From a bacterium ADurb.Bin243 (lineage in GTDB: Bacteria > Muiribacteriota > UBA9980): a stretch of DNA of 64,000 nucleotides. The stretch lies in the NCBI GenBank assembly GCA_002069765.1, contig MWBZ01000012.1:8436-72435 (forward strand), written 5' to 3'. Under the pieces are notes generated by a model. That model had not been told where the DNA came from and ran no database searches. It saw only the letters and a program-made list of their open reading frames with translations. A program made the position numbers and the translations under genes. Positions 11,705 to 62,682 of the stretch are shown here, one piece after another; within the stretch, counting starts at the first letter, position 1, and every line of letters begins with the position of its first letter.

Positions 11705-11708
11705 AAGT

Positions 11709-44516: not shown

Positions 44517-44525
44517 AACAAAAAT

Positions 44526-44555
44526 ATTATAACACAACGAACGTTTTATTTACAA
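44526..44555 (-). promoter_or_regulatory. Putative promoter TTGTAA-N18-TATAAT (minus strand) ending 9 nt before the queE ATG
   Basis: Reverse complement of 44550-44555 is TTGTAA and of 44526-44531 is TATAAT; there is no Shine-Dalgarno sequence between the -10 element and the ATG. Confidence 0.35.
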
Positions 44556-47700: not shown

Positions 47701-48082
47701 AATACCGGATTCTCTCGTTATAAATATTTCCTGCGAAGAGGAATTTCTCAACAGCGTCCCTCAGATGACCCGCAAAGTTTTCCGCGACAGCGCGCCGCGC
47801 CGCATCGACGACGACGACGACGGTTACGGCTCGCGCGATTTGAGCACCGGCGCCGTGCATAAGCCGCATTCGGCGGCGTCAGAAGATGAACCGGGCGAAA
47901 ACCTCGCAGAGTTCGGCGGCGTCACTTTCGCCAAAAGCGACAGGGTAAAGCATTCGATGTGGGGAATCGGCGTCGTGCTCGAAGCCACGGGTCGCGGCGA
48001 CGAATGCCTCGTAAAAGTCAATTTTATGAACGTGGGCGAAAAGAAGCTGCTGCTCAAATATGCGCCGCTCGACAAAATATAA
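44741..48082 (+). CDS. pcrA: ATP-dependent DNA helicase PcrA/UvrD carrying an in-frame intein in helicase motif III
   Basis: Walker A AGAGTGKT, motif Ia, DEYQD, and motif III split as VVGDDDQ / (intein) / SIYSWRGAD; C-terminal UvrD domains. The 1113-aa length compares with about 750 aa for intein-free homologs. Confidence 0.9.
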   Translation: MDIFESLNPMQYEAATLTDGPLIIFAGAGTGKTKVITHRIAYLIKKKNVNPKNILAITFTNKAADEMRTRVDALLPGNGRDVWVSTFHKICLFILRNHAESLGLTKNFIIYDDGDQNALIKECLKELDVNEDNIKPRMILSKISLAKSNMISEDDYLLNESSHIDSIIEKIYKLYNKKLRQNNAVDFDDIIFLTASLLKNNDSVLKTYSTRFKYILVDEYQDINYSQYMFVKTLSNIHKNICVVGDDDQCVCANSQVLTPNGYQKIENIMEGSQIVSCIGHDGVSIAQTSKVMRRPYSGQAIKITLENQKTLTVTPNHLLFAKYNSSASLSYVYMMYRKAFGYKIGVCQGLSLFTESRKYDLEEGDKIWILKICKNPKDASYFESLYSTRYGIPTLHFTARSLGATLEQDKIKKIYSEVDTFVRAEVLMRDLMIYEEHPHYVSVVKTRSLSSPKVLSLTMFGANERSRENGWYFHRMNLDINAQNIGVLRGDTSVIKKTGSLDKWKVEAVREDYSELVSFAKTISGLDELLLVEKAQLTSKAPFYQMPASHVHENMTLAFFNHKEKKIEELLVSEIEVIDYEGFVYDLSVNHLHNFIVDGFVVHNSIYSWRGADVRSMLNFERDYPNSQVVKLEQNYRSTKNILLAASEVIKNNVTRREKTLWTQGESGEKITVYEAINEQAEVVFAINQMRQVIYREDKKYSDFAFFYRTNAQSRVIEETLIKEGIPYKMVGAIRFYQRKEIKDVIAYLRLILNTSDNLSLLRILNVPRRGIGEKSISSLVAFANEKKISIFDALAKVAEIEDLPLKAKNTTLNFVDLINELRADCAKLNVTELTKNVLDKTGYLRELKVINSSQTLDRSKNINELLSVTEAYDQEKSGGGLSGFLERVTLISDLDEIDEKQNSVTLMTFHAAKGLEFPVVFMLGMEEKLFPHEHSSDENYDIAEERRLCYVGMTRARERLYIIHTRQRRIFGSVFTNPVSRFVSEIPDSLVINISCEEEFLNSVPQMTRKVFRDSAPRRIDDDDDGYGSRDLSTGAVHKPHSAASEDEPGENLAEFGGVTFAKSDRVKHSMWGIGVVLEATGRGDECLVKVNFMNVGEKKLLLKYAPLDKI
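45488..46555 (+). mobile_element. Intein (356 aa, Hint domain blocks A, B, F, G) inserted between Q249 and S of helicase motif III
   Basis: Begins CVCANSQVLTPNG (block A), has TLTVTPNHLLF (block B, T-x-x-H), and ends GFVYDLSVNHLHNFIVDGFVVHN followed by +1 Ser. The central about 200 aa contains no clear LAGLIDADG or HNH motif. Confidence 0.85.
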
Positions 48083-50500: not shown

Positions 50501-52075
50501 ATGAGCATCAAATCTCATCCTAAGGGATTATACGTACTTTTTTTCACCGAGGCATGGGAGCGCTTTTCATACTACGGCATGCGCGCCCTTCTGGTTTTAT
50601 ACCTGGTAAAGCATCTGAACATGGCCCGCCACAACGCGCTTGAAATATACGCGCTTTATACCGGCCTGGTCTATTTCACTCCTATGATCGGCGGATATCT
50701 GGCGGATAAATACCTCGGCGCGAGAAAAGCCATTATAATAGGCGGCCTGGTTATGGCCCTCGGCCATCTGGCGATGGCTTTCGAATCGCTTCTCTATCCG
50801 GCCCTCGGACTTTTGATCGTCGGAAACGGCTTTTTCAAGCCGAATATTTCCACCATAGTCGGCGGCCTTTATGAAGAGCACGATCCGCGCCGCGACGGCG
50901 GATTTACCATATTCTACATGGGCATAAACCTGGGCGCGTTCTTCTCGCCGCTGGTATGCGGAACCCTCGGAGAAAATTACGGCTGGGACTGGGGATTTTC
51001 GGCCGCCGGCATAGGCATGACCATCGGGCTCCTGGTATTTCTGATGGGCCAGAAAATTCTCGGCCCTAAAGGCTTTCCGCCGCACACCAACCGCGAAAAA
51101 CTTATAGCTAAAGATTATATAGATATAGGCGTTTATACGGCGGTTTCGGTGGTTTTCGTATTCGGGTTCCTCAGGTTCTGGGAGTTCTTCGGCCCAATGT
51201 GGCAGGCGTTTTCGATGACGCATAAAACCGCGTTGTCGGCCGCGCTGATAATGGCCGTTTTATCGGCCGGAAAATTATTTTCGCGTAAAAACAAAGCGGT
51301 GGCGGCGACCCTTGCCGGTTCCTCCGAAGACGACGGCGGCGACGCGCCCGTAACGTGGGAAGAATGGCAGAGGATCATCGTAATATGCATAATATCGGTT
51401 TTCGTTATATTCTTCTGGATGGGCTTCGAGCAGGCCGGCGGCACGCTCACGCTTTTCGCCGACCAGCAGACCGACAGGAATTTTATGGGTTACGAAATAC
51501 CGGCCTCGTACTTTCAGTCTATCAACCCTCTCGCCATAATGCTTCTGGCGCCGATTTTCTCCGTTTTATGGTTCAGGCTCGACGAATCCAGATACGCCCT
51601 TTCGACTCCGGCTAAAATGGCGGCAGGCATGATCACTCTGGGGCTGGGTTTCATAGTGATGTATTTCGGCCAGTCGCTCGCTTTCAGCGGCGATACGACA
51701 AAGGTGGTCAGCATGCCTTTCACCAACGGTTTCCAGGTTTTCGCATCCGACATATACTGGCGCGAATTCGGCAAAGTGGGCCCGCTGTGGCTCGCGATGG
51801 TTTATCTTATACACACCATAGGCGAGCTATGCCTTTCCCCGATAGGGCTTTCGATGGTGACCAAGCTTTCGCCGGAACGCTTCGTATCTCTTATGATGGG
51901 AATTTGGTTCGTTTCTTCGGCTCTTTCGAACTATCTCGCCGGAAGGCTGGAGGAGCTTCTGAGCATTTATCAGCTCAACATATACGTTTTTCTGATAATG
52001 TCTTCGATCGGAGCCGGCATTCTGCTGCTGGCCCTGACGCCGCTTTTAAACAAATGGTCTCACGGCCGCGCGTAG
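50501..52075 (+). CDS. Proton-dependent oligopeptide transporter (POT/PTR2 family MFS transporter)
   Basis: 524 aa; about 14 TM segments; POT signature region (GGYLADKYLGARKAIIIGGLVMALGH, FYMGINLGAF). Confidence 0.85.
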   Translation: MSIKSHPKGLYVLFFTEAWERFSYYGMRALLVLYLVKHLNMARHNALEIYALYTGLVYFTPMIGGYLADKYLGARKAIIIGGLVMALGHLAMAFESLLYPALGLLIVGNGFFKPNISTIVGGLYEEHDPRRDGGFTIFYMGINLGAFFSPLVCGTLGENYGWDWGFSAAGIGMTIGLLVFLMGQKILGPKGFPPHTNREKLIAKDYIDIGVYTAVSVVFVFGFLRFWEFFGPMWQAFSMTHKTALSAALIMAVLSAGKLFSRKNKAVAATLAGSSEDDGGDAPVTWEEWQRIIVICIISVFVIFFWMGFEQAGGTLTLFADQQTDRNFMGYEIPASYFQSINPLAIMLLAPIFSVLWFRLDESRYALSTPAKMAAGMITLGLGFIVMYFGQSLAFSGDTTKVVSMPFTNGFQVFASDIYWREFGKVGPLWLAMVYLIHTIGELCLSPIGLSMVTKLSPERFVSLMMGIWFVSSALSNYLAGRLEELLSIYQLNIYVFLIMSSIGAGILLLALTPLLNKWSHGRA

Positions 52076-52096: not shown

Positions 52097-53335
52097 TCAA
52101 ACGATTTCTCCGAATTTAAGCCTGACGATCGTTTCAGCGGCTTTTTCGCCCAGGCCGAGAAATCTCACAAGCTTGAGCTTCTGCCAGAACCTTTTCTGGC
52201 GGGAGCTTTTAATTTCTTCGCTCACCTTTCCGCCGAGCGTTTCGCTCGGAGCGCCGGGGCGGCCTTCATATTTAAGCGCCTGGTATAAAGATATATCGGC
52301 CCTGCCGATAAGCTCGTAAGTTTTGATGAAATCTTCGCGCGTTTCGCCCGGAAAGCCTACCATTACGATAGAGCTGACGCTTTTCAGGCCGGTTTCGCGC
52401 ACCATATAGTTGACGGCCGCCACAGCTTCGCTTATTTTATAGCGGCGGCGCATGGAATCGAGTATTTTTTGCGAGCCCGACTGAAGAGGCGCGCAGAAAG
52501 ACGTAACGCGGCCTGTCTTAAAAATAGCCGCCAGCGCGTCGAAGTGCTTGATAAGCCATACCGGCTCTATAAAGCGGATATTGACTTTGAAATCTTCGCC
52601 GGCCTTCAAAACTTCGTTTAAAAGCTCGGGCAGGCTCGAATTTATATCGGCCCCGTAGCAGCCCATATCGTCGCCCGCGAATGAAATTTCACGATAACCG
52701 AGCTTTACGGCGTCTTTTACCTGCGATATTATTACGTCCGGTTGAACGCTTTTTACGGAGCCTCTCGCGCGCTTTATGGCGCAGTAGGAGCATTCGCCGA
52801 GACAGCCGCTGGCGCCCCTTATCAAATACCACTCGGGCACGGGGACCGTATCCAGAAAATCCGGAATTTTAATGAAAGGCATTATCTTATTTATGGCGCC
52901 GAATAATTTTTTGAGCTTTATGCCCGCCATGAACATTTTATTTTCGCGATATTCGGACACGCCCACGATATTGGCGCTTATTTTATCAAGCGGCACGGCC
53001 GAAGGAAATATTTTTTCGATATCGGATATCTGCGAAGGCGCAAGCGCCGTGACGTCTCCGATAGATTGGAAAAGCGAAGGGTTTATCTTTGAAAGGCAGC
53101 CGCTCACAATAACCATGGCGCCGCTTTTTCGGCCTTCGAGCGCCTTACGGATTTTTTTGACGGCGTCGGTTTCATATTCCTGATTGAACGCGCAGGTGGA
53201 AACGAGCACCGTATCGGCCTGTTTTATATCGGCCGTCTCCGCGTGGCCGGCTTTTAAAAGATACCCCCTTATAAGGGCGATATCTAAAACAAGTTCGGTG
53301 CAGGGATGGGCTGAATTGATAATATGAAAAATCAT
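52097..53335 (-). CDS. MiaB-like methylthiotransferase-family radical SAM protein lacking a TRAM domain, paralog 1
   Basis: N-terminal MTTase domain with three spaced Cys (PCTE, STCAF, SGCL); radical SAM motif GCLGECSYCAI; VGFPGETRED motif; no C-terminal TRAM domain. Confidence 0.7.
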   Translation of the reverse strand: MIFHIINSAHPCTELVLDIALIRGYLLKAGHAETADIKQADTVLVSTCAFNQEYETDAVKKIRKALEGRKSGAMVIVSGCLSKINPSLFQSIGDVTALAPSQISDIEKIFPSAVPLDKISANIVGVSEYRENKMFMAGIKLKKLFGAINKIMPFIKIPDFLDTVPVPEWYLIRGASGCLGECSYCAIKRARGSVKSVQPDVIISQVKDAVKLGYREISFAGDDMGCYGADINSSLPELLNEVLKAGEDFKVNIRFIEPVWLIKHFDALAAIFKTGRVTSFCAPLQSGSQKILDSMRRRYKISEAVAAVNYMVRETGLKSVSSIVMVGFPGETREDFIKTYELIGRADISLYQALKYEGRPGAPSETLGGKVSEEIKSSRQKRFWQKLKLVRFLGLGEKAAETIVRLKFGEIV

Positions 53336-53343
53336 GCGGTTCC

Positions 53344-54546
53344 TTATACTCCGAATATCAAATTTTTAAGGTGCTTTTTTACCACGGCGCGGTGCATGAC
53401 GGCATACCGGCGCTCTATTTCGGCTTGCGGCACCTGGTTTTCAAATTCGGCGGCCTTAGTGTTGGGACGGCGTTCGTATTTAAAGACCATATACATCTCA
53501 TGGCGCACTTCGTCGACCAGCCTCATGGACTGGTAAAAGTCTTCCTCGGTTTCTCCTGGAAATCCGACTATGATATTGGTGCTGATCATTGCCACGCGGG
53601 TCTTTTCTATTATGTAATTGACGGTTTCCTTTATCTGCTCGAAGGTATAGCGGCGGTTCATGGATTTGAGGATCCTGTTGGAGCCCGACTGGGCGGGAGC
53701 GCAAAAAGCCTTTATCTTACCGGTTTTAAAAGCCGGAATTAGCCGGTCTTTTAATTTGTAAAGCCAGTAAGGGTCTATAAAGCGCAGATTTATTTTAAAA
53801 TCGCCGCCCAGGCATACGAGTTCATTCAGAAGATCGGCGAGATTCGTTTTTATATCCACGCCGTATCCGCCGAGATCTTCTCCGGTGAGGGCGATTTCGC
53901 GGTACCCTATCTCTATGCCTTTTTTAGCCTCTGCGACTATCGTTTTTATGGGGTCGCTTTTGAGCGGGCCGTGGGCGTTTTTTATGGCGCAATATGAGCA
54001 GTTTCCGGTACAGCCCATGGCGGCCCTTACGCAATACCATTTTTCTGAAGGCACCGTGAATAAAATCTTAGGCACGCGGACGAAAGGGAGAAAGCTTAAT
54101 TTTTCGAACCATTTGCGGGCGCGGAAAAACCTGCTGATTTTAGGATCGGTATCGTATTCGCGTTCGGAAACGAAGTGGTTTTCGAAATTCACGATTTTAT
54201 TTTCAAAATTCATTATTTCGTCGAACTTCGCTATATTCGAAGTCGGGACGCTCCGGCCGTTGAAAACGCTTTTCAGGCGCTCTTTATTGATGTCGGGCAG
54301 GCAGCCGGCCACCACGAGTTCGCATCCGGCTTTTTTTTCGCGCCCCATTTTTTCTATAACGCCGATTTCATAATCTTCCTGCTCTTTTGAAAAACCGCAT
54401 GTGGAAACGATTATTACGTCGGCGTCCAGGTGCGAGCTGCATATTTCCCAGCCGTTGGCCGAATACCAGCGCTTGATGGCGTTCATATTCATCGCGTTTT
54501 CCGTGCAGGGGTGCTTGGTTGAATGTATATAAGCTTTTTTAGTCAT
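53344..54546 (-). CDS. MiaB-like methylthiotransferase-family radical SAM protein lacking a TRAM domain, paralog 2
   Basis: Same architecture: PCTE, STCGF, AGCL; GCTGNCSYCAI; VGFPGETEED. Confidence 0.7.
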   Translation of the reverse strand: MTKKAYIHSTKHPCTENAMNMNAIKRWYSANGWEICSSHLDADVIIVSTCGFSKEQEDYEIGVIEKMGREKKAGCELVVAGCLPDINKERLKSVFNGRSVPTSNIAKFDEIMNFENKIVNFENHFVSEREYDTDPKISRFFRARKWFEKLSFLPFVRVPKILFTVPSEKWYCVRAAMGCTGNCSYCAIKNAHGPLKSDPIKTIVAEAKKGIEIGYREIALTGEDLGGYGVDIKTNLADLLNELVCLGGDFKINLRFIDPYWLYKLKDRLIPAFKTGKIKAFCAPAQSGSNRILKSMNRRYTFEQIKETVNYIIEKTRVAMISTNIIVGFPGETEEDFYQSMRLVDEVRHEMYMVFKYERRPNTKAAEFENQVPQAEIERRYAVMHRAVVKKHLKNLIFGV

Positions 54547-55865
54547 TAAAATTCTCCAAATTTATTGAATACGACGGAGCTGTTGCCGCCGGAAAAGCCG
54601 CATGAGTTCGAGATGGCTGCTTTGATAAGCATTTTACGGGCCCCGCCGGTGCAGTAATCCAGATCGCAGGCCGGGTCGGGCGTTTTAAGGTTCGCCGTCG
54701 GGTGGCATATGTCGTTTTTAACGCTGAGAGCCGTTACTACGGCCTCTATGGCGCCGGCGGCGGCCACCGAATGTCCGATCATGGATTTAGTCGCGCTGAC
54801 CGCGATATTTTTGCAATGTTCGCCGAAAAGCGATTTAATGGCGCGCGTCTCGCTGGCGTCGTTGAGCCGCGTGGACGTGGCGTGCGGGTTGACGTATGAA
54901 AAATCCGTAAGCGGTATGCCCGAATCTTTTATAGCCCGCTCCATAGCCAGTTTCATCATGCCTCCGTCGGGGCGGCACGCCGTGATTTTTTCGGCGTCGG
55001 AGCTCGACGCATAACCGGAAATCTCGCATATAATATTTGCGCCGCGCGCCAGCGCGTGTTCGAGCTCTTCAATTATTATAACAGCGCCGCCTTCGCCGAG
55101 AACGAAACCGTCGCGGTTAAGATCGAACGGCCGCGAGGCCGAAGGCGCTTCTTCGTTATTTGTGGAAAGCGCGCCCAGAAGGTTGAAGCCCGTCAGGATA
55201 TAGGCGTCTATCATTTCATCGCAGGAACCGCTCACCGCCACGTCTATCTCGCCCGAACGTATGCGCCTTAAAGCCTCTCCGATAGCGTAGTTAGACGATG
55301 CGCAAGCGTTGGAAGTGGCCATTACCGGCCCTTTTATTTTATAACGAGCCGCCAGATAGCCGGGGATAAAAAACGGAAATTTATTGCGGATTTCGTCTTT
55401 AGTTAAAAGCTCGAGGCAGTTATTCGCGAAAAGGCCGTAATCTACTTTAAAATCAGGGCCGCCTGAACGCTTGAATATTTCATAGGCCTTTTCGAAAGAT
55501 ATCCGGCTCGTTTCTATTCCCATAAAAATTCCGCATGAAAATTTCCGGAAATCTTCTATGCCGGAGGCGGCCGCCGCCTCATCAAAAGCGCTGAGCATAA
55601 AAGCGAGCTTGCGCGAAAAATATTTATGCGAATCGGGGTATTTATCCATAAGTTCCGCCGCCTGCGAAACCCGCGCCCCTATATGAACGGCGAATCCGTG
55701 CCGCTTGAATTTTTCGAGCTCTCCCACGGCGCTTTTTCCGGCGCAAAGCCCGCGGAATGTTTCATCGGCCCCTATGCCGAGAGGCGTAACCATTCCGGCT
55801 CCTGTTATTACGGCCCGCCTTCTGCCGCTTTGAATTTTTTTAATTTTAGCGTTTTCTCCGTTCAT
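54546..55865 (-). CDS. Beta-ketoacyl-ACP synthase (FabF/KAS II-like)
   Basis: 439 aa; active-site Cys context (ATSNACASSNYAIG), two His motifs (NPHATST; MIGHSVAAAG), C-terminal GFSGGNSSV. Confidence 0.8.
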   Translation of the reverse strand: MNGENAKIKKIQSGRRRAVITGAGMVTPLGIGADETFRGLCAGKSAVGELEKFKRHGFAVHIGARVSQAAELMDKYPDSHKYFSRKLAFMLSAFDEAAAASGIEDFRKFSCGIFMGIETSRISFEKAYEIFKRSGGPDFKVDYGLFANNCLELLTKDEIRNKFPFFIPGYLAARYKIKGPVMATSNACASSNYAIGEALRRIRSGEIDVAVSGSCDEMIDAYILTGFNLLGALSTNNEEAPSASRPFDLNRDGFVLGEGGAVIIIEELEHALARGANIICEISGYASSSDAEKITACRPDGGMMKLAMERAIKDSGIPLTDFSYVNPHATSTRLNDASETRAIKSLFGEHCKNIAVSATKSMIGHSVAAAGAIEAVVTALSVKNDICHPTANLKTPDPACDLDYCTGGARKMLIKAAISNSCGFSGGNSSVVFNKFGEF

Positions 55866-57079
55866 ATTTTATCCACCAGTTTCCCGCCGGTCAAAAACCA
55901 TGTGCCTTTTTTTTCGGCGGCAGATTCGGGCACTTTATTTACCACCATCGCCGGGTCGGGATAAAGCGTGACGTCGTTCGGGATCATTCTTCCCGGCGCT
56001 ATTATCAGCCCGGCCGCTATTTTCGTCCTGTGGCCTATTATAGAGCCCGCGAAACGCAGGCCGGTGTCTTTGACTCCGTCTGAGCACATTACCGATATCG
56101 TTTTTCCGTCCAGCCGGTAGTCGGACGGTATCGAGTTCATCACCGCGGAATCGTAACCGAAGCAGGAAAATTGATACGGCCCGCTGATAAGGAACGCGCG
56201 AGGATAAACCACCGAAAAGAAAATGACGTTGTTATTGGCTATATATGCCTTTTCGCCCACCACGCTGAATTTTACGGCGCTATGGTCGTCTATGTATGCT
56301 CCGCCGCCTATGACGGAAAACCGCACGACCGCGTACGCGCCGACTACGGCGCCGGATTTGATCACGCTGCCTTCTATGACGGCCGTCGGATGAACTTTAG
56401 CGCCTTTTTCTATAACCGAAAGCGCGCCGAGTATTTTAGCTTCGCTTATGGAGCGGGCGCGGAAAAGAACGCCAAGTTTTGCGGCTGCGCCGAGCTTGCG
56501 GAAGCGGGCCAGGCGCGCAAAATTGGCCGCCATGTTGACCATGGCTATATGAATGGGCTCGCAAACCCTCACGACGGCCTTTGAAGTGACGCAAAACTTG
56601 AAATGGTCTTTTCCTATCATGTGATCGGGAAAATGGCCCGATTCGTAAAATTCGTCGGGATTTATAACCGCGTTTTTCGCGCGGCTCTCTTCGAAAACCG
56701 GCGCTTTGGAATAATAAAGCGGATACTCCATAACCGATTCGTTTTCTTTGAGCCTCTGCAGTATGGCGATCTGTTTTGTAAAAAGGGTTTTTTCCAGCGC
56801 GGCGCGCACGAGCGGCGCGTCGGCCGCCATGGCGCGTTTTAAAAATTCGGCTAAAAATTCAGGCGTAAAGAAAATATCGTCGGTTAAAACAAGCGCGCCG
56901 GAGAGGTTTTCATCTTTGAGCGCGGCGCTTTCCAGGCGGACGGATTCAAAACCGGCCTCCGCAAGAACGCGCGCCTGATAATCTCGGAGCCTTTCGTTCA
57001 AAATTAAAATATCGCCGCAATGATCATTAAAAGGCGGTATTACAGTATTAGTTTTTATAATGAATGCTTTCATTTTCAT
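55862..57079 (-). CDS. Left-handed beta-helix (hexapeptide-repeat) protein with N-terminal nucleotidyltransferase-like region
   Basis: C-terminal half consists of hexapeptide repeats (VIEGSVIKSGAVVGAYAVVRFSVIGGGAYIDDHSAV...); function not assignable. Confidence 0.5.
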   Translation of the reverse strand: MKMKAFIIKTNTVIPPFNDHCGDILILNERLRDYQARVLAEAGFESVRLESAALKDENLSGALVLTDDIFFTPEFLAEFLKRAMAADAPLVRAALEKTLFTKQIAILQRLKENESVMEYPLYYSKAPVFEESRAKNAVINPDEFYESGHFPDHMIGKDHFKFCVTSKAVVRVCEPIHIAMVNMAANFARLARFRKLGAAAKLGVLFRARSISEAKILGALSVIEKGAKVHPTAVIEGSVIKSGAVVGAYAVVRFSVIGGGAYIDDHSAVKFSVVGEKAYIANNNVIFFSVVYPRAFLISGPYQFSCFGYDSAVMNSIPSDYRLDGKTISVMCSDGVKDTGLRFAGSIIGHRTKIAAGLIIAPGRMIPNDVTLYPDPAMVVNKVPESAAEKKGTWFLTGGKLVDKI

Positions 57080-57170
57080 AGTATTACAATTATAACATTT
57101 TTAACGGCCGTTTTCAACACGGTATAAAATATCGTTATGATTTATTAAACGGATTTCGAATCCCGGCCAC

Positions 57171-57233: not shown

Positions 57234-58313
57234 ATGAAAAAATTCGTTTCATCTTTATTATTGTTTCTCGCTTTAACGGTTTCCCTATCTTTCAGTCCTC
57301 TTCAAGCGGCGGAAATTTTAGCCGAATCTTCCGTAAGCGTTATATTTTTCATGCCGATAGGCAACTCCCTCGACCCGTTCATCCAGGTAAGCGAAAAAGG
57401 CATACAGGTATCCGCCGCTCTTTTCCCCAACCTTAAAATCGCAAGGGTTTATCCTTATTCCGACGATTACGTTCACGAATATATTAAATTCGCCGCCATG
57501 CGCGGGCACGATTATATAATCGGAATCGGCTCCTACTACGCCGACGCGTTCGATAAAATAGCCGATGCGTTTCCGGGCAAAAATTTTATCGTGGTGGACG
57601 GAAAGTCAAATAAAAAGAATGTCAAGTCGATAGTGTTCAACAACCGCGAAGCCGGATATCTCGCGGGGGCCGTCGCCGGCATCCTTTCCGAAACCGGAAA
57701 AATAGGGTTCATAGGCGGCAAAGAAACGGGCATCATCTTCGATTTCGAAAAAGGATTCGCCGAAGGCGTAAAAAAACAGAATAAAAAAGCCGAAATTTCC
57801 GTAAAATATATTTCAAAAACCAATGAAGGCTACACCAATCAAAAAGCCGGATTCGACATAGCCGACGCCATGTATAAAAGCGGAACCGATATAGTGTTCG
57901 CAGCGGCCGGCGCATCCGGACTCGGTTCTATCGACGCCGCGCGCCTGAATAAAAAAATGATCATCGGAGTCGACGCCGACCAGGACGAAGTAGCCCGCGG
58001 CATAGTTATGACTTCTATAATAAAAAGGCTCGATACCTCTATAGTCAATCTTCTTCAATCTATCGCGACCAATAAATACGACTCTAAAGAAACGGTTTAC
58101 AACGTAGGCAACGTCGGTTTCGCCCTTTCAAATTTCACTTTTTCAAAAAATAAAATTAAAAAAGCCGCCCTCGATAAAATTTACGACGAACTTTTCCAGA
58201 TGAAGAAAAAATATGATTACTCGGAAATATCCAAGTTGAAAAACCCCGACGAAGAAACCGAAAAAAAATCGAAGCGCAAAGAATACAAGCCGGGACAGCT
58301 TTTCAGAAAATAA
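57234..58313 (+). CDS. BMP-family (PnrA/Med-like) periplasmic substrate-binding protein
   Basis: Signal peptide; motifs typical of basic membrane protein family SBPs (FIVVDG...NVKSIVFNNREAGYLAGAVAG, IGFIGG). Confidence 0.6.
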   Translation: MKKFVSSLLLFLALTVSLSFSPLQAAEILAESSVSVIFFMPIGNSLDPFIQVSEKGIQVSAALFPNLKIARVYPYSDDYVHEYIKFAAMRGHDYIIGIGSYYADAFDKIADAFPGKNFIVVDGKSNKKNVKSIVFNNREAGYLAGAVAGILSETGKIGFIGGKETGIIFDFEKGFAEGVKKQNKKAEISVKYISKTNEGYTNQKAGFDIADAMYKSGTDIVFAAAGASGLGSIDAARLNKKMIIGVDADQDEVARGIVMTSIIKRLDTSIVNLLQSIATNKYDSKETVYNVGNVGFALSNFTFSKNKIKKAALDKIYDELFQMKKKYDYSEISKLKNPDEETEKKSKRKEYKPGQLFRK

Positions 58314-58355: not shown

Positions 58356-59408
58356 ATGAAATTTTCAAACAATCTAATTTTAAAATCTAATTCAATCACC
58401 GCGCGCTCCGGCGTCCATGCCGAAAATATGGAAGCGCTGGCGCGCGGCTTGAATTTCTGGGTTGACGCTCCGTTGAATATCGACCGCTTTACGCTGGACA
58501 GGCACGGAAAAATATCCGACTCCTTAACGGCGGAGCTTCTGGACTCTTTCGACATCAAACCAAAAAACAAGAAGTATTTCGAACGCTCTTCGACGCTTCT
58601 TTTCAGCGTAATAAAAGACTACGGGCCGTTGCTCAAAAGCATAGACGGCTCGGAAGTCGGGCTCTATTGCGGCGTCGGGCCTGCCAACGCGCGCATAGAC
58701 GATTTCAGGGAATGGGCCGCCGGCATCGAAGGCGCCGATGAATTTTATCCGTCTATGATGGCGAGTTCGGTTATAAAGCTTCTGCCGAATATCGTGATGT
58801 CCAACCTTTCTATCAACACCGGCTGGCGGGGAGAAAACGCTATTTTCTCCTCCTGCGCCTCCGCTTTCTTCGACGCTTTAAATTCGCTTCTCACCGCCTT
58901 TGAAAACGGCTCTTCACGGATCGCCGCCGCCGGTTCGGTTTCCGCCCCTTTCGAATACTTCAATATGGATTCATACAGCCGGTTTTTCGGCGCCGATTTT
59001 TTCGATCCGCCATTATGCGAAACCGCTTCGTCGATGCTTTTATGCACTCCCGATTTTTACGCCGGGCGCCTTGAAAATACAGGTATGGAGCCCGAAGGCC
59101 GCATCCTTTCGATCGATTCTTATAAAACTCCAGAAGGACTTTTTAAACGCTCCGATATCAAGAATTTTGAAAAACTGGCGCGAGATTTTTTAGAATCTGA
59201 AAATTACGATTTTACCGATACGCTTTATTTTAAAACGCACCCCGCCGCCTGCGGTAATTTTTTGACAGGCGGCGAGCCCGTTAACGTTATGAGCCTTGTT
59301 TATTCGCTGAACGCCGCCGGCGAAAAGGGCTTCGCCGTTAGCGTAAATATCGATTACTTCGGCAACCTTCACGCCGTAAAAGCCGGCGGCCGGGCTTCGC
59401 AGAAATAA
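58356..59408 (+). CDS. Beta-ketoacyl synthase-like protein, short/divergent (possible KS partner or chain-length-factor-like)
   Basis: 350 aa; region PNIVMSNLSINTGWRGENAIFSSCASAFFDALNSLLTAFENGSSRIAAAGSVSAPFE aligns by eye to the KS active-site segment (PNM-AG-VS---GL-GP--T--TACSSS--AI--A---I--G--D--LAGG-E) with the nucleophile Cys retained; the C-terminal His-His region is not evident. Confidence 0.45.
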   Translation: MKFSNNLILKSNSITARSGVHAENMEALARGLNFWVDAPLNIDRFTLDRHGKISDSLTAELLDSFDIKPKNKKYFERSSTLLFSVIKDYGPLLKSIDGSEVGLYCGVGPANARIDDFREWAAGIEGADEFYPSMMASSVIKLLPNIVMSNLSINTGWRGENAIFSSCASAFFDALNSLLTAFENGSSRIAAAGSVSAPFEYFNMDSYSRFFGADFFDPPLCETASSMLLCTPDFYAGRLENTGMEPEGRILSIDSYKTPEGLFKRSDIKNFEKLARDFLESENYDFTDTLYFKTHPAACGNFLTGGEPVNVMSLVYSLNAAGEKGFAVSVNIDYFGNLHAVKAGGRASQK

Positions 59409-59440: not shown

Positions 59441-60886
59441 ATGCCGGTTTCAAAAGTTTTTAATAAGATAGACAGAATAGCTCTTATAGAGCCGGCCGTT
59501 CGCTGCGAATGCCTTACCAGCGATATATTCGCTCAGATCAGGGCATCTCTGCCGTTTCTCGCCGGGGCGCTTTCTGCCGCGGGATACGGCTGCGAGATTT
59601 ACTGCGAAGAACTTATCGAATTACAGCCGCATATACCCAAAATAGCTTCTTCTTTTCCGGCCGCCGGAATATCGCTTACCATAAACACCGTCCGGAGGGC
59701 CATCGAAATAGCGCTAAGCCTGAAAAAATACAATCCTGAAATAATAATCATTTTCGGCGGATCCCTCGCGGGCAGCTTCGCCGGCGAAGTTTTAGCGGCG
59801 GGCGATTACTGCCTCAACGGGCGCGCCGAAACCGCCCTTCCAATGCTTTTGAACTCGCTGAACTCAGGCGCGGATATCGGCGATGTCCCAAATTTAATCC
59901 GCATATCGGAAGGCAAAATATTCAAAAACAATGTGCCCTCGCCTGCGGCCGATTTTAAATCGGATTATTCCGGCGTGCTTAATTTCGGAAATTTTTCAGA
60001 GAAGCGCAATATTTTAAACTTTTATAAACCTCCGCTTTATTCGGTTTTCTCTTCGACGGGGTGCGTAAACAATTGCCGTTTCTGCGTCAGCGAAAAAAAA
60101 TATATCAAACGCGAACCGGAAAACGTCATATCCGACTTTAAAAATATTATTCTCAGGCACAAAGGGTATCTTCCGCCACGCTTTATGCTGGTGGACGACT
60201 GCGCTTTCGGCGACATGGGTTACCTTAAAAATCTTCTTGCGCGTCTCGCATTTTTAAGAAAAAAAAGTAATTTTTCGCTCATGATGCAGTTTCACGTACA
60301 TCCTCTTTTAAAAGATCCGCAGCTCCCCGAACTTTTTAACGAAGCCGGAGTAACGACGCTTCTCATGGGCTTTGAATCAGCTTCCGACGTTTCTCTTAGC
60401 GGCGAACGCAAAGGTACGACAGTAAGCGAAAATATAAAAGCCATCGAAATCTGTAGAAAACACGGCATTACGCCTTACGGTTATTTCGTCGCCGGCTTCG
60501 ATTCCGATTCCATCGAAAGCGTTAAAGAAATTTTCGACTTCATTATACGGTACTCGCTGGCGGCGCAGGTACTTCCGGTAGGAGTTATGAAAAATTCCGC
60601 CGCCGCCCCGAAAACAGACGGCCATGAAACGCTCGATCCTTATTCTTTCGGCGCCTCCATGAAAGTCTCGCATATTCCCCAAAATATGCAGCCGTACAGG
60701 CTTCAGGAAATTTTAATCGAGGGTTACGACCGGATTTATTCTTTAAAGCGAACGGCATTAATGAAGACTTTCCGGGAAACGGTTTACAATCTTTTTTTCA
60801 GCCTTTGCTATCGCAAATGGCGTCCCGGACTTCAAAAACATCTTAATTACCTGCGCCTTCTCGAACGTTTTTCAAAGCGGTCTTAA
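59441..60886 (+). CDS. Radical SAM protein with N-terminal B12-binding-like domain
   Basis: Motif GCVNNCRFCVSE; N-terminal region IALIEPAV...LTINTV resembles the Rossmann-like cobalamin-binding domain. Confidence 0.6.
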   Translation: MPVSKVFNKIDRIALIEPAVRCECLTSDIFAQIRASLPFLAGALSAAGYGCEIYCEELIELQPHIPKIASSFPAAGISLTINTVRRAIEIALSLKKYNPEIIIIFGGSLAGSFAGEVLAAGDYCLNGRAETALPMLLNSLNSGADIGDVPNLIRISEGKIFKNNVPSPAADFKSDYSGVLNFGNFSEKRNILNFYKPPLYSVFSSTGCVNNCRFCVSEKKYIKREPENVISDFKNIILRHKGYLPPRFMLVDDCAFGDMGYLKNLLARLAFLRKKSNFSLMMQFHVHPLLKDPQLPELFNEAGVTTLLMGFESASDVSLSGERKGTTVSENIKAIEICRKHGITPYGYFVAGFDSDSIESVKEIFDFIIRYSLAAQVLPVGVMKNSAAAPKTDGHETLDPYSFGASMKVSHIPQNMQPYRLQEILIEGYDRIYSLKRTALMKTFRETVYNLFFSLCYRKWRPGLQKHLNYLRLLERFSKRS

Positions 60887-60915: not shown

Positions 60916-60944
60916 TTGACAACCGGCATTTATTTATATATAAT
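60916..60944 (+). promoter_or_regulatory. Consensus sigma70 promoter TTGACA-N17-TATAAT
   Basis: Exact TTGACA at 60916-60921, 17-nt spacer, exact TATAAT at 60939-60944; AGGAGGG Shine-Dalgarno at about 60988 and ATG at 60999. Confidence 0.6.
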
Positions 60945-60998: not shown

Positions 60999-62129
60999 AT
61001 GGTAAAAAAATCGTTCCACGCAATGTTATGCTCGCTATTAATGGTTTTTATCTGCCTTGTCCCGGCTTTCGCCGCTAACGATGCGGCTCCGGTTTCCGAA
61101 GATAAAGTGTTATTTTTCGTCAATAATCCGGCCGAGATTTCATTCGTTGAAATGGGCAAAATAATGTCATACGTTGAAAATTACTATCGCAACGTAGGCC
61201 TCATAAACAGCCAGGACGTAGAGAAATTCTTCCAGGCTCTCAGAAACCACGGCGCGCCCAACGCCGGCAGTTCAAAAGCATATGTGGCCCTGGTTATCCA
61301 GGACGCCTCGCATCCCGACAATACTTCTTATTCGCCCTGCGGAGTGCTGGCCGTTCGCGGACAGTTCGACAAAGCCAAAGTTATCGACATCCTCAAACGC
61401 CATTATGCCGAACATACCGCTAAAACTTCACACGAAAACCATTTCGCAGAAACCAAAAGCGGCGACGTAACCGTCCACCGTTTCGCGCTTCCCGAAAAAG
61501 ACCGCGAACTCACGATAATCAGCTTCGGCGAATATTGCCTTTTTTCGTCGGCCAAAATCGGCGACACCAGGCTTTTAAAAGAAACCGCAAAATATCTCCA
61601 GGACAAAAGCTTCAAAGCGAATTTAAACTCCGAAACCAACGTCCGCTTTCTCGTAAAAGCCGACGACATGGATAAACAGAAGCTCAATAAAATTATAAAC
61701 GACAAATACGAAGACCTGAAGCAGAACAAAGTCCTTTTAAAAAGAAAAGGGCTCAAAGGCTTTTTCACCAGACGTTTCGCCGATCATAAGGTAAAATTCA
61801 TAAACAACGCGATCAGCGAATTAAACGACGTAGATTTTACCGTTTACAGAATGAGAAACGAAAACGCCAACATGAAAAGAGTTTCGGTCGTTTCAACGTT
61901 CGCAAACGAAGACACGGCGCGCAAAGTTAAAAAGAACATATTAAACCATCTTAACGACGCGATAAAAGGCGCATCTCATCCCGAAGACAAACTCGGGCTT
62001 TCAAACGTAAAAATAATAGCCGACGGCAACAAATGCTCCATAGAAACCGAGCTTGGAACCGAAGACGAGCAGCTGCAGTGCTTCGCCCTTATTTCCTCAT
62101 ATGTAGCAAGATCTATTATCAGAAAGTAA
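60999..62129 (+). CDS. Secreted hypothetical protein (signal peptide, no recognised domain)
   Basis: 376 aa; N-terminal signal peptide MVKKSFHAMLCSLLMVFICLVPAFAAND; driven by a consensus promoter. Confidence 0.5.
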   Translation: MVKKSFHAMLCSLLMVFICLVPAFAANDAAPVSEDKVLFFVNNPAEISFVEMGKIMSYVENYYRNVGLINSQDVEKFFQALRNHGAPNAGSSKAYVALVIQDASHPDNTSYSPCGVLAVRGQFDKAKVIDILKRHYAEHTAKTSHENHFAETKSGDVTVHRFALPEKDRELTIISFGEYCLFSSAKIGDTRLLKETAKYLQDKSFKANLNSETNVRFLVKADDMDKQKLNKIINDKYEDLKQNKVLLKRKGLKGFFTRRFADHKVKFINNAISELNDVDFTVYRMRNENANMKRVSVVSTFANEDTARKVKKNILNHLNDAIKGASHPEDKLGLSNVKIIADGNKCSIETELGTEDEQLQCFALISSYVARSIIRK

Positions 62130-62199: not shown

Positions 62200-62682
62200 A
62201 TGAGATTTTATTTCGTAGACAAAATTACAGAATTTAAAAAGGGCTCCTCGATAGCCGGAATCAAAAACGTATCGATGACGGAGCCCTTTTTTACTTTTCA
62301 TTTTCAGCGCTATCCGGTCATGCCGGGCGTCCTGATTATAGAATCGCTTGCGCAGCTCGCCGGGCTCATGATCGAAATGTCCTTCGAGCCCGGCTGCTAT
62401 AAAAAAGCCATTTTATCCATCGTAGATAAAACCAAAATCAAATTCATGGCCCGCCCCGGCGACAGGATAGACATGAAAGCCTCGCTCGAAAGCCTTTCCG
62501 AAAAGGGCGCGGTATGCGAAACTTCCGCTGCCGTCGACGGCAGGCTTCTCACCGAAACCCGCCTTACCTTCGCGCTCATGGACGCCGGGGGCGTTTACGA
62601 CAAATATTTAGAGGACGAGCGGCTGGCTTTGATCGACACATTGATGCGCGATTTCAATTCGCGCGGCGAAAAGCGCGAATAA
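62200..62682 (+). CDS. FabZ/FabA-like 3-hydroxyacyl-ACP dehydratase (hotdog fold)
   Basis: 160 aa; FxxHFxxxPVMPGVLIIESLAQ catalytic His motif characteristic of FabZ. Confidence 0.75.
   Translation: MRFYFVDKITEFKKGSSIAGIKNVSMTEPFFTFHFQRYPVMPGVLIIESLAQLAGLMIEMSFEPGCYKKAILSIVDKTKIKFMARPGDRIDMKASLESLSEKGAVCETSAAVDGRLLTETRLTFALMDAGGVYDKYLEDERLALIDTLMRDFNSRGEKRE

What the first reader, a model, noticed from the sequence alone, without database searches (positions are those of the whole stretch)
52097..54546. Tandem pair of MiaB-family radical SAM proteins without TRAM domains next to a ketosynthase
Both proteins keep the N-terminal methylthiotransferase domain with its three spaced cysteines (the auxiliary cluster site) and the radical SAM core. 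Both stop at about 400 aa and lack the RNA-binding TRAM domain found in MiaB, RimO and MtaB. Losing the RNA-binding module while sitting in an operon with FabF suggests a non-RNA substrate, possibly sulfur insertion or methylthiolation on an acyl or small-molecule substrate.
Basis: partly seen in the sequence, partly recalled or inferred. Interest (0 to 1): 0.6.

Follow-up and report, generated by a model that had tools for sequence, protein, structure and literature searches.

The report
TRAM-less methylthiotransferase pair in lipid operon
Two neighbouring radical-SAM enzymes have the fold of the tRNA and ribosome methylthiotransferases but no RNA-binding domain, and they sit in a conserved lipid-building and lipid-export gene cluster of uncultured anaerobes, so they most likely modify a fatty chain rather than RNA.

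Summary
Window 53344-54546(-) (MTTA, 400 aa) and 52097-53335(-) (MTTB, 412 aa) each carry UPF0004 plus Radical_SAM and all six cluster cysteines. Neither has a TRAM domain by Pfam, NCBIfam profile coverage, a custom TRAM HMM or a confident AlphaFold model of MTTA.

They are 37% identical sister paralogs. They are translationally coupled behind a GlmU-like hexapeptide protein and a catalytically intact ketosynthase. They face a divergent operon of Bmp, an inactive CLF-like ketosynthase, a B12-radical SAM enzyme, a secreted unknown and FabZ.

In 18 related loci from Wallbacteria and Riflebacteria, the pair stays together in 15 of 17 testable cases. The gene order is shuffled, but the pair stays near ACP, ketoreductase, ketosynthases, the hexapeptide protein, B12-radical SAM enzymes and an MMPL lipid exporter. 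In one locus MTTA is fused in frame to MMPL.

The pair belongs to a large, uncharacterised TRAM-less clade with a long interdomain linker, separate from MiaB, RimO and MtaB in a rough tree.

A non-RNA, lipid-chain substrate is well supported by this indirect evidence. The chemistry is inferred only: methylthiolation or sulfur insertion, or else sulfur-free radical chemistry. I found no published characterisation. I rate it a new variant of a known kind, with moderately high interest.

The parts
57089..57117 (-). Promoter-like site (TTGAAA, 17 nt spacer, TG-TATAAT) about 10 nt upstream of the first gene of the minus-strand operon
   Evidence: Consensus scan, 11 of 12 matches with an extended -10 TG. 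This is a pattern match only, not evidence of function.
55862..57079 (-). LbH405: two-domain protein with an N-terminal nucleotidyltransferase-like fold and a C-terminal left-handed beta-helix (GlmU/ST0452-like). Candidate acyltransferase that hands the chain to a head group.
   Evidence: Pfam LbH_EIF2B and Hexapep. AlphaFold2 pLDDT 90.6. Foldseek best matches are ST0452, GlmU, GMPPA/B and eIF2B. Its orthologs have the same taxonomic range as MTTA and MTTB, and remote homologs sit with ketosynthase, FabZ-like, FA_desaturase and MMPL genes. Its last 4 nt overlap the KS439 start.
54546..55865 (-). KS439: FabF-like elongating ketosynthase with an intact Cys-His-His triad
   Evidence: Pfam ketoacyl-synt N and C domains. 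TIGR03150 fabF scores 370 bits, below the 493.75 equivalog cut-off. The triad is visible in alignment A3.
53344..54546 (-). MTTA: TRAM-less methylthiotransferase-fold radical SAM protein, 400 aa. Auxiliary-cluster cysteines C14/C50/C82; radical SAM cysteines C179/C183/C186.
   Evidence: Its start codon overlaps the KS439 stop codon by 1 nt.
52097..53335 (-). MTTB: paralog of MTTA (37% identity), 412 aa. Auxiliary-cluster cysteines C12/C48/C80; radical SAM cysteines C178/C182/C185. No TRAM domain.
   Evidence: It starts 8 nt after the MTTA stop and is the last gene of the operon (convergent POT gene at 50501-52075).
57234..58313 (+). Bmp359: secreted PnrA/Bmp-like binding protein with no ABC transporter partner nearby. 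First gene of the divergent operon.
   Evidence: Pfam Bmp, E 1.5e-43. Conserved at this place in L001, L005, L006 and L009.
58356..59408 (+). KS-like350: truncated ketosynthase homolog without the Cys-His-His triad. Probable chain-length-factor-like partner of KS439.
   Evidence: Weak ketoacyl-synt hit. Alignment A3 shows the catalytic columns are not conserved and the C-terminus is missing. Conserved in L001, L005, L006 and L009.
59441..60886 (+). B12rSAM481: cobalamin-binding radical SAM protein. Its orthologs directly follow MTTB in Riflebacteria.
   Evidence: Pfam B12-binding plus Radical_SAM. No NCBIfam equivalog is reached: TIGR04072 ladderane type scores 40 bits against a cut-off of 360. 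Synteny.
60999..62129 (+). unk376: secreted protein of unknown family, with its own perfect sigma-70-like promoter match at 60916-60944
   Evidence: No Pfam or NCBIfam hit. Signal-peptide-like N-terminus. Homologs lie near the cluster in L005, L014 and L016. Promoter match.
62200..62682 (+). FabZ160: 3-hydroxyacyl-ACP dehydratase homolog
   Evidence: Pfam FabA, E 1.7e-20. NCBIfam FabZ scores 104-107 bits, just below the cut-offs. A homolog lies in the FabZ-KS-LbH module of L053.

Best explanation
MTTA and MTTB are two paralogous radical SAM enzymes of the methylthiotransferase fold. Each carries a radical SAM [4Fe-4S] site and a three-cysteine auxiliary [4Fe-4S] site. They work on the hydrocarbon chain of a specialised lipid, not on RNA.

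Proposed pathway:
1. The chain is built on a dedicated ACP by KS439 with its inactive CLF-like partner KS-like350, a FabG-like ketoreductase and FabZ160.
2. B12-radical SAM enzymes and the MTTA/MTTB pair decorate the chain.
3. The GlmU-like LbH405 protein hands it to a head group.
4. An MMPL (RND-type) transporter exports it.

Proposed chemistry: each paralog uses a 5'-deoxyadenosyl radical to remove a hydrogen from one unactivated carbon of the chain. It then delivers a sulfur-based group (methylthio or sulfide) held on its auxiliary cluster. The two paralogs serve two different positions or steps, as the LipS1/LipS2 pair does on an octanoyl chain.

What is shown: domain make-up, the cysteines, absence of TRAM, the methylthiotransferase fold, operon structure, conserved synteny and the MMPL fusion.

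What is inferred: the substrate class (I put it at about 0.65) and the sulfur-transfer chemistry (about 0.4 to 0.5 if the substrate class is right).
For: 1. Fold and cofactor sites.
- UPF0004 plus Radical_SAM with all six cysteines in both proteins and across both families.
- The AlphaFold2 model of MTTA matches MtaB, MiaB and RimO with E 1e-22 to 1e-26.
- RimO is the best sequence match in the PDB, E 3e-36.

2. No RNA module.
- No TRAM domain by four methods.
- The interdomain linker is 75-76 residues, against 24-50 in TRAM-bearing enzymes.

3. Operon. 4-nt, 1-nt and 8-nt junctions join LbH405, KS439, MTTA and MTTB.

4. Synteny over 18 distinct loci.
- MTTB is adjacent in 15 of 17 testable loci.
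- A lipid-type gene (ketosynthase, ACP, SDR, LbH or MMPL) lies within 10 kb in 13 of 18.
- A B12-radical SAM gene lies within 10 kb in 11 of 18.
- Gene order differs between lineages.

5. Fusion. An in-frame MMPL::MTTA fusion of 1134 aa is followed by MTTB, and faces KS-KS-acyltransferase-SDR-B12-rSAM.

6. The LbH family.
- LbH405 orthologs share the taxonomic range of the pair.
- Remote homologs sit in FabZ-KS-LbH clusters with FA_desaturase, a phosphopantetheinyl transferase and MMPL in Sericytochromatia. One is fused to FA_desaturase.
- So the module is a chain-modifying lipid pathway. In these examples it is paired with oxygen-dependent desaturase-family enzymes in organisms I take to be aerobes. 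It is paired with radical SAM enzymes in lineages I take to be anaerobes.

7. KS439 keeps Cys-His-His while KS-like350 has lost it. This parallels the KS/CLF-like heterodimer of the ladderane cluster (bioRxiv 10.64898/2026.05.19.726425).

8. Precedent for two paralogous sulfur-inserting radical SAM enzymes acting on one acyl chain: LipS1/LipS2 (PMC9585515).
Against: - There is no biochemical evidence of any kind, and no lipid data exist for these uncultured phyla.
- In 5 of 18 loci the pair, or MTTA alone, has no lipid-type gene within 10 kb (L003, L012, L013, L018, L047).
- ACP, SDR, the large B12-radical SAM enzyme and MMPL are not in this 64-kb window.
- No sulfur-supply gene is linked to the cluster.
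- I know of no sulfur-bearing fatty acid of this kind. A 2026 review lists only ladderanes and jawsamycin as fatty-acyl lipids proposed to be modified by radical SAM enzymes (PMC13459092).
- Retention of auxiliary-cluster cysteines does not prove sulfur transfer.
- Distant members of the TRAM-less clade have varied contexts.
- The tree is neighbour-joining without support values.
Confidence: 0.45

Rival explanations
1. Same lipid pathway and same substrate class, but sulfur-free chemistry. MTTA and MTTB would use the radical to desaturate, cross-link, cyclise or hydroxylate the chain. The auxiliary cluster would act as an electron sink or substrate anchor. They would be the anaerobic counterparts of the di-iron FA_desaturase-family enzymes that accompany the FabZ-KS-LbH module in aerobes.
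For: - FA_desaturase genes, and one LbH::FA_desaturase fusion, occupy the accessory-enzyme role in the Sericytochromatia and Cocleimonas versions of the module.
- A B12-radical SAM lipid desaturase (Ted) has just been described (bioRxiv 10.1101/2025.10.20.683597), so anaerobic radical SAM desaturation of lipid tails has a precedent.
- No sulfur-related gene is present in any of the clusters.
Against: - Every characterised enzyme of this fold that I know of, with this three-cysteine auxiliary site, transfers a methylthio group.
- The three N-terminal cysteines are invariant or nearly so in both families.
- The parallel with desaturases is an analogy drawn from two loci and one fusion.
Confidence: 0.25
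2. The substrate is a peptide or protein, as for RimO. It would be either a ribosomally made precursor (a RiPP-like pathway, with the B12-radical SAM enzyme as C-methylase) or a cluster protein such as the extended ACP.
For: - RimO, a protein-modifying enzyme, is the closest solved relative by sequence.
- A conserved small ORF of 35-58 aa, with motif IRG..LL...P...RRATYxxW[D/E], lies between MTTB and the B12-radical SAM gene in seven Riflebacteria/Ozemobacteraceae loci.
- The best NCBIfam hit of B12rSAM481 is a RiPP C-methyltransferase family, far below its cut-off.
- A SPASM-like radical SAM gene and a 97-aa ORF follow in L046.
Against: - An HMM search of all six frames finds no counterpart of the small ORF in this window or in the Wallbacteria-type loci, which nevertheless keep MTTA and MTTB. 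It therefore cannot be their general substrate.
- The small ORF overlaps the start of the B12-radical SAM gene, not the methylthiotransferase genes.
- There is no peptidase, leader-recognition (RRE) domain or ABC exporter typical of RiPP clusters.
- RimO itself keeps a TRAM domain.
- The MMPL fusion and the ACP/KS/KR/DH context point to a lipid.
Confidence: 0.1
3. They are ordinary tRNA or ribosome methylthiotransferases that bind RNA without a TRAM domain, and they lie next to lipid genes by accident.
For: - The fold and cofactor sites are those of MiaB, MtaB and RimO.
- The TIGR00089 score of MTTA is 250.2 against a cut-off of 251.
- Some source annotations call homologs MiaB or CDKAL1.
Against: - No equivalog cut-off is approached. 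The best specific model, TIGR01578, scores 224 and 186 bits against 314.7.
- There is no TRAM domain.
- The pair lies in a separate clade from E. coli MiaB, E. coli RimO and e-MtaB-like proteins.
- Synteny with lipid genes is kept through rearrangements in two candidate phyla, and there is a fusion to MMPL.
- No translation gene is linked in any locus.
Confidence: 0.05

Closest known systems
MiaB/RimO/MtaB radical SAM methylthiotransferases (TIGR00089; structures 7MJV, 4JC0, 9A6D)
   Same: N-terminal UPF0004 domain with three cysteines for an auxiliary [4Fe-4S] cluster, a radical SAM core with CxxxCxxC, and the same overall fold.
   Different: - No C-terminal TRAM domain.
- The interdomain linker is about 30 residues longer.
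- Scores are below every equivalog cut-off.
- The pair lies in a separate clade.
- It is encoded as a tandem paralog pair in a lipid-type cluster rather than alone or with translation genes.
Putative ladderane biosynthesis clusters of anammox bacteria (Rattray 2009, PMC2649909; Cluster I with the amxFabF2/amxFabFmut heterodimer, bioRxiv 10.64898/2026.05.19.726425)
   Same: Type II FAS-like genes (ACP, FabZ, an active ketosynthase plus an inactive CLF-like ketosynthase) are combined with B12-radical SAM and other radical SAM enzymes in an anaerobe. The product chemistry is unknown.
   Different: - The B12-radical SAM enzymes here are not orthologs of the ladderane type (TIGR04072 scores 40-61 bits against a cut-off of 360).
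- No phytoene-desaturase-like gene is present.
- A text search of the Rattray paper found no mention of MiaB or methylthio.
- This cluster adds LbH, Bmp and MMPL genes.
LipS1/LipS2 two-protein lipoyl synthase (PMC9585515)
   Same: Two paralogous radical SAM enzymes, each with an auxiliary [4Fe-4S] cluster and often encoded side by side, each attach sulfur at one carbon of a saturated acyl chain.
   Different: LipS1/LipS2 are biotin-synthase-like, not of the methylthiotransferase fold. Their substrate is an octanoyl-lysyl protein. There is no sequence relationship beyond the radical SAM core. The comparison is an analogy only.
Aryl-polyene-type and highly reducing type II PKS/FAS clusters with an MMPL exporter
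   Same: KS plus CLF-like partner, ketoreductase, dehydratase, dedicated ACP and an RND/MMPL exporter for an envelope lipid. This comparison rests on my own knowledge of those clusters.
   Different: No radical SAM enzymes are known in those clusters. No ammonia-lyase, thioesterase or LolA-like genes are seen here. KS439 scores best against FabF, not against the polyketide ketosynthase models.

Membership tests
MiaB/RimO/MtaB methylthiotransferase family (TIGR00089) | N-terminal UPF0004 domain with three conserved cysteines (auxiliary [4Fe-4S] site) | tested here: met
   PF00919 hits. MTTA has C14/C50/C82 and MTTB has C12/C48/C80, aligned with the E. coli MiaB and RimO cysteines.
MiaB/RimO/MtaB methylthiotransferase family (TIGR00089) | Radical SAM core with CxxxCxxC | tested here: met
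   PF04055 hits. The motif starts at C179 in MTTA and C178 in MTTB.
MiaB/RimO/MtaB methylthiotransferase family (TIGR00089) | C-terminal TRAM domain | tested here: not met
   No PF01938 hit. Profile coverage ends at 357-360 of 429. The tails are 15 and 28 residues. The custom TRAM HMM is negative, with positive controls detected. The MTTA model ends in one helix.
MiaB/RimO/MtaB methylthiotransferase family (TIGR00089) | Score at or above the curated family cut-off (251 bits) | tested here: not met
   MTTA scores 250.2 bits (marginal) and MTTB 207.6 bits.
Specific methylthiotransferase subfamilies: MiaB (TIGR01574), RimO (TIGR01125), MtaB (TIGR01579), e-MtaB/CDKAL1 (TIGR01578) | Score at or above the equivalog cut-off (about 315-357 bits) | tested here: not met
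   The best specific model is TIGR01578, at 223.9 bits (MTTA) and 186.4 bits (MTTB) against 314.7. The others score 126-202 bits against about 355. In the neighbour-joining tree both proteins lie in a TRAM-less clade apart from E. coli MiaB, E. coli RimO and e-MtaB-like proteins.
MiaB/RimO/MtaB methylthiotransferase family (TIGR00089) | Catalyses methylthiolation (two SAM per turnover, sulfur delivered from the auxiliary cluster) | not testable with these tools
   Needs enzyme assays.
Ladderane-type lipid cluster (TIGR04072 lipid biosynthesis B12-binding/radical SAM protein) | B12-radical SAM ortholog at or above 360 bits | tested here: not met
   B12rSAM481 scores 40.4 bits. The Wallbacteria 631-aa B12-radical SAM protein scores 60.9 bits.
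KS/CLF-type ketosynthase pair (type II PKS; anammox amxFabF2/amxFabFmut) | One ketosynthase with a Cys-His-His triad plus one homolog that lacks it, encoded in the same cluster | tested here: met
   Alignment A3: the KS439 triad is intact. KS-like350 and its Wallbacteria ortholog are not conserved at the three columns and are truncated at the C-terminus.
KS/CLF-type ketosynthase pair (type II PKS; anammox amxFabF2/amxFabFmut) | Physical heterodimer | not testable with these tools
   No multimer prediction or experiment was available.
RiPP biosynthetic cluster | A precursor peptide gene next to the maturases | tested here: not met
   The small ORF conserved in Riflebacteria has no counterpart in the six-frame translation of this window (hmmsearch, best window E = 13).

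The most novel reading that the evidence does not exclude
MTTA and MTTB would be the first methylthiotransferase-fold enzymes that act on a lipid. They would install methylthio or thiol groups on a fatty chain that is made on a dedicated ACP and exported by MMPL, or carry out another anaerobic C-H functionalisation of that chain. They would also be the first functional handle on a large TRAM-less, long-linker clade spread over many bacterial and archaeal phyla, often next to B12-radical SAM enzymes. All 141 newly returned representatives nearest to MTTA, clustered at 50% identity, lack TRAM. That clade may as a whole be the anaerobic tool-kit for modifying lipid tails, filling the role that di-iron desaturase-family enzymes play in aerobes.
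Probability: 0.4. Interest if true: 0.75.

Novelty: new variant of a known kind. Interest (0 to 1): 0.6.

Why it matters
To my knowledge, radical SAM methylthiotransferases are characterised only on tRNA (MiaB, MtaB/CDKAL1) and on ribosomal protein S12 (RimO). A clade that has dropped the RNA-binding domain and is wired into an ACP, ketosynthase and MMPL lipid pathway would add a new substrate class to this enzyme family.

It would also predict an unknown class of modified envelope lipids, possibly sulfur-bearing and methyl-branched, in Wallbacteria and Riflebacteria. These are candidate phyla with no cultured members and no lipid data.

Such lipids could serve as biomarkers for anoxic sediments. 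The enzymes would add to the short list of radical SAM enzymes that act on fatty-acyl lipids rather than isoprenoid lipids.

Finally, the finding gives a concrete, clonable 10-kb gene set on which to test the idea.

Tried and rejected
- Cryptic TRAM domain: rejected by Pfam, NCBIfam coverage, tail length, a custom HMM and the AlphaFold model.
- Riboswitch or other RNA element in the window (for example cobalamin or SAM): Rfam at gathering thresholds gave 0 hits over all 64 kb.
- RiPP precursor in this window: an HMM of the Riflebacteria small ORF found nothing in six frames of the window or of the Wallbacteria-type loci.
- Membrane-binding amphipathic helix in the long linker: the hydrophobic-moment scan was not distinctive. 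I draw no conclusion from it.
- Literature: searches for a characterised TRAM-less methylthiotransferase, a MiaB-like enzyme in lipid or ACP pathways, and Riflebacteria or Wallbacteria lipid genes found no such report. The archaeal GDGT-modifying enzyme papers and the bacterial membrane-spanning lipid paper do not mention MiaB-like enzymes.
- Membership of the ladderane cluster type: rejected on TIGR04072 scores.
- Family assignment failed for unk376, the 731-aa Wallbacteria protein and several L053 and L046 ORFs: no Pfam or NCBIfam hit.
- Contexts of distant TRAM-less members (Chloroflexota L051; L052) were too varied to generalise.
Full report
**1. The observation**

The minus strand of the window carries four tightly packed ORFs:
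- 55862-57079, 405 aa, here called LbH405.
- 54546-55865, 439 aa, KS439.
- 53344-54546, 400 aa, MTTA.
- 52097-53335, 412 aa, MTTB.

LbH405 and KS439 overlap by 4 nt. KS439 and MTTA overlap by 1 nt. MTTA and MTTB are 8 nt apart. A sigma-70-like site lies just upstream of LbH405.

Pfam finds UPF0004 plus Radical_SAM in both MTTA and MTTB, and no TRAM domain. The NCBIfam family model TIGR00089 aligns only to profile position 357-360 of 429. It scores 250.2 and 207.6 bits against a cut-off of 251.

All six cluster cysteines are present: C14/C50/C82 and C179/C183/C186 in MTTA, and C12/C48/C80 and C178/C182/C185 in MTTB.

After the radical SAM core, only 15 and 28 residues remain. TRAM-bearing relatives have 68-108.

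I built a TRAM HMM from the tails of known enzymes. It recovers E. coli MiaB and RimO (both in its training set) and dozens of untrained e-MtaB-like proteins, but not MTTA or MTTB.

An AlphaFold2 model of MTTA (pLDDT 91.2) ends in a single helix, residues 374-398. Its best structural matches are MtaB, MiaB and RimO. By sequence, RimO 4JC0 is the closest solved structure, E 3e-36. MTTB was not modelled.

**2. What the two proteins are**

MTTA and MTTB are 37% identical.

Each has its own set of orthologs: about 50 clusters at 90% identity for MTTA and about 40 for MTTB. These come from Candidatus Wallbacteria, Riflebacteria, Ozemobacteraceae and unclassified MAGs. By MTTA identity, the window is closest to:
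- MAG JPNA_metabat.86, 96%.
- Ca. Wallbacteria GWC2_49_35, 85%.
- UBP16 UBA6123, 83%.

In a neighbour-joining tree the A and B families are sisters. They lie inside a broad group of proteins that share three traits: no TRAM domain, an interdomain linker of 59-98 residues (24-50 in TRAM-bearing enzymes), and all six cysteines. E. coli MiaB, E. coli RimO and e-MtaB-like proteins fall on the other side of the tree. The tree has no support values.

I searched 1.84 billion cluster representatives with MTTA. Besides a few A- and B-family representatives, the 141 newly returned neighbours are 29-57% identical, mostly 30-39%. All of them are TRAM-less by the custom HMM.

So this is not a local domain loss. 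It is membership of a large, uncharacterised TRAM-less branch of the methylthiotransferase fold. The branch is present in Saccharibacteria, Woesebacteria, Chloroflexota, Elusimicrobiota, Bdellovibrio, Anaeromyxobacteraceae, Thermoplasmatales and Lokiarchaeota. It often lies directly next to a B12-radical SAM gene.

None of the four known subfamily models comes near its cut-off.

**3. The surroundings in the window**

KS439 is FabF-like and keeps the Cys-His-His triad.

LbH405 models confidently (pLDDT 90.6). It has a nucleotidyltransferase-like N-terminal domain plus a left-handed beta-helix. Its best matches are ST0452, GlmU, GMPPA/B and eIF2B. This suggests an acyltransferase or scaffold of the GlmU type.

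A second operon runs divergently on the plus strand:
- A secreted Bmp/PnrA-like protein.
- KS-like350, a truncated ketosynthase homolog without the catalytic triad, so CLF-like.
- B12rSAM481.
- unk376, a secreted protein of unknown family.
- FabZ160.

Rfam finds no RNA element anywhere in the window.

**4. Related loci**

I mapped the window proteins, and six further proteins from a Wallbacteria locus, onto 18 distinct loci that carry an MTTA ortholog.
- MTTB is adjacent in 15 of 17 testable loci.
- A lipid-type gene (ketosynthase, ACP of 130-134 aa, FabG-like SDR, LbH or MMPL) lies within 10 kb in 13 of 18.
- A B12-radical SAM gene lies within 10 kb in 11 of 18.

Gene order differs between lineages:
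- Wallbacteria HGW-1: MMPL, B12-rSAM631, SDR and ACP on one strand; Bmp, rSAM339, KS-like, LbH, KS, MTTA, MTTB and a 731-aa unknown on the other.
- Riflebacteria nHGRbin4: one operon of LbH, ACP, SDR, B12-rSAM596, MMPL, MTTA, MTTB, a small ORF, B12-rSAM470, two more radical SAM genes and an aminotransferase.
- A third arrangement adds a class I methyltransferase and a third methylthiotransferase-like paralog.

Linkage that survives this much rearrangement argues for a shared function.

The strongest single item is P0335, locus L055 1124-4528. It is an in-frame fusion of an MMPL transporter to MTTA, 1134 aa. MTTB follows it. On the opposite strand are KS, KS, an acyltransferase, SDR and a B12-radical SAM gene.

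MMPL/RND proteins of this type export envelope lipids; this is established knowledge of the MmpL and HpnN families.

No locus links the pair to translation or tRNA genes.

**5. An older module**

LbH405 orthologs have the same narrow taxonomic range as the pair. Remote homologs occur elsewhere, again in lipid settings:
- In a Sericytochromatia contig, a FabZ-like gene, a ketosynthase (38% to KS439) and an LbH gene (38% to LbH405) lie in that order. Two FA_desaturase genes, a phosphopantetheinyl transferase and an MMPL gene lie nearby.
- In Cocleimonas, an LbH gene follows FA_desaturase and Lgt.
- One protein, P0328, carries an FA_desaturase domain and matches LbH405 over about half its length.

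I infer that FabZ-KS-LbH(-MMPL) is an older lipid module. Its accessory chain-modifying enzymes are oxygen-dependent di-iron enzymes in the examples from organisms I take to be aerobes. They are radical SAM enzymes in Wallbacteria and Riflebacteria, which I take to be anaerobes. This is inference from a few loci.

**6. Mechanism proposed**

Shown: the fold, the cofactor-binding residues, the absence of TRAM, the operon structure, the conserved linkage and the MMPL fusion.

Inferred: MTTA and MTTB act on the hydrocarbon chain of an ACP-built lipid. KS439 with KS-like350 would act as a KS/CLF-like pair, together with a ketoreductase and FabZ.

Each enzyme would abstract a hydrogen with a 5'-deoxyadenosyl radical. 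It would then transfer a methylthio or sulfide group from its auxiliary cluster, at two different positions or steps. B12-radical SAM enzymes would add methyl groups, LbH405 would transfer the chain to a head group, and MMPL would export the product.

Two published systems offer partial precedents:
- LipS1/LipS2 are two paralogous sulfur-inserting radical SAM enzymes that act on an octanoyl chain (PMC9585515).
- The ladderane cluster has a KS/CLF-like heterodimer together with B12-radical SAM enzymes (bioRxiv 10.64898/2026.05.19.726425; PMC2649909).

I put the lipid-chain substrate class at about 0.65, and the whole statement including sulfur transfer at 0.45.

**7. Rival explanations**

(a) Same substrate, sulfur-free chemistry such as desaturation, cross-linking or cyclisation. 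The desaturase parallel and the new B12-radical SAM lipid desaturase Ted (bioRxiv 10.1101/2025.10.20.683597) favour it. The strictly kept methylthiotransferase-type auxiliary site argues against it. Confidence 0.25.

(b) A peptide or protein substrate. A conserved small ORF of 35-58 aa, motif RRATYxxW[D/E], lies between MTTB and the B12-radical SAM gene in seven Riflebacteria loci. It is absent from this window and from the Wallbacteria-type loci, which keep the pair, and it overlaps the B12-radical SAM start. Confidence 0.1.

(c) Ordinary tRNA or ribosome enzymes. This is disfavoured by every test above. Confidence 0.05.

**8. Comparison with what is known, and novelty**

The proteins work on the methylthiotransferase scaffold but fail two defining features of the family as curated: the TRAM domain and the cut-off scores. 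They fail all four subfamily models.

The cluster resembles the putative ladderane clusters, and aryl-polyene-type clusters with MMPL export, in general design. It is not a member of either: TIGR04072 scores 40-61 bits against 360, and the accessory genes differ.

Full-text searches found no paper that describes a TRAM-less methylthiotransferase or a MiaB-like enzyme in a lipid pathway. A 2026 review names only ladderanes and jawsamycin as fatty-acyl lipids proposed to be modified by radical SAM enzymes (PMC13459092).

I therefore rate this a new variant of a known kind. A specialist in radical SAM enzymes or bacterial lipids would find it worth cloning. The evidence is genomic only, and the product is unknown.

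**9. Limits**

- ACP, SDR, MMPL and the large B12-radical SAM enzyme are not in this window.
- Five of 18 loci show the pair without lipid genes nearby.
- The tree is distance-based.
- I could not search the carrier genomes for separate housekeeping methylthiotransferases.
- No multimer prediction was possible.

Noticed in passing
L003 12541-12684; L014 12450-12587; L016 13070-13234; L017 about 12660-12795; L018 12596-12721; L019 about 12440-12574: A conserved small ORF of 35-58 aa, with motif IRG..LL...P...RRATYxxW[D/E], lies between MTTB and the B12-radical SAM gene in Riflebacteria and Ozemobacteraceae loci and overlaps the B12-radical SAM start. Gene callers do not annotate it except in L003. 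It is absent from the window and from Wallbacteria-type loci. It could be a small subunit or a peptide substrate of the B12 enzyme.
   Followed up: partly
L055 1124-4528: An in-frame fusion of an MMPL (RND) transporter with an MTTA ortholog, 1134 aa, followed by MTTB. The opposite strand carries KS, KS, a 2-oxoacid_dh-like acyltransferase, SDR, a B12-radical SAM gene, a tautomerase and a ferredoxin/nitroreductase.
   Followed up: yes
window 8685-14791 (-): Four tandem B12-binding radical SAM paralogs (541, 530, 514 and 513 aa), flanked by unknown proteins of 402 aa (7428-8636) and 154 aa (14964-15428). This is a second cluster rich in radical SAM genes in the same window, of unknown function.
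   Followed up: partly
window 44741-48082 (+): The PcrA/UvrD helicase (1113 aa) is interrupted by an intein. Pfam Intein_splicing and Hint hits fall at about residues 248-605, between the helicase N- and C-terminal domains.
   Followed up: no
L053 3270-9692 and 15226-17577; L054 5869-9113; protein P0328: Remote homologs of LbH405 in Sericytochromatia and Cocleimonas sit with a FabZ-like gene, a ketosynthase, FA_desaturase genes, a phosphopantetheinyl transferase, Lgt and MMPL. P0328 (591 aa) carries an FA_desaturase domain (precomputed Pfam) and matches LbH405 over about half its length, so it looks like an LbH::FA_desaturase fusion. Together these suggest an uncharacterised lipid module shared by aerobes and anaerobes.
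   Followed up: partly
L001 5162-6181; L046 14659-15735; L013 2789-3784: A radical SAM protein that passes the NCBIfam cut-off for the AmmeMemoRadiSam-system enzyme (TIGR04337, 297 bits against 220) recurs near the MTTA/MTTB pair. No AMMECR1 or Memo partner appears in the stretches examined.
   Followed up: no
L012 11876-13003; L011 4338-5435; L001 18461-19999: Proteins that combine a CdhD-like (corrinoid Fe-S protein delta subunit) region with two [4Fe-4S] ferredoxin motifs recur near MTTA orthologs. Class I SAM methyltransferases (UbiE/CMAS-like) lie directly next to TRAM-less methylthiotransferase-like genes in L012, L048 and L051.
   Followed up: no
window 36601-40614 (-): A 1337-aa protein with four repeats of CHB_HEX_C_1 plus Fn3_assoc domains lies next to a glycogen-debranching-type alpha-amylase (40601-42754). 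It is probably a surface protein and is unrelated to the finding.
   Followed up: no
window 43815-44537 (-): A small radical SAM protein (240 aa; Radical_SAM plus Fer4_12, so activase-like) stands alone upstream of the helicase gene.
   Followed up: no
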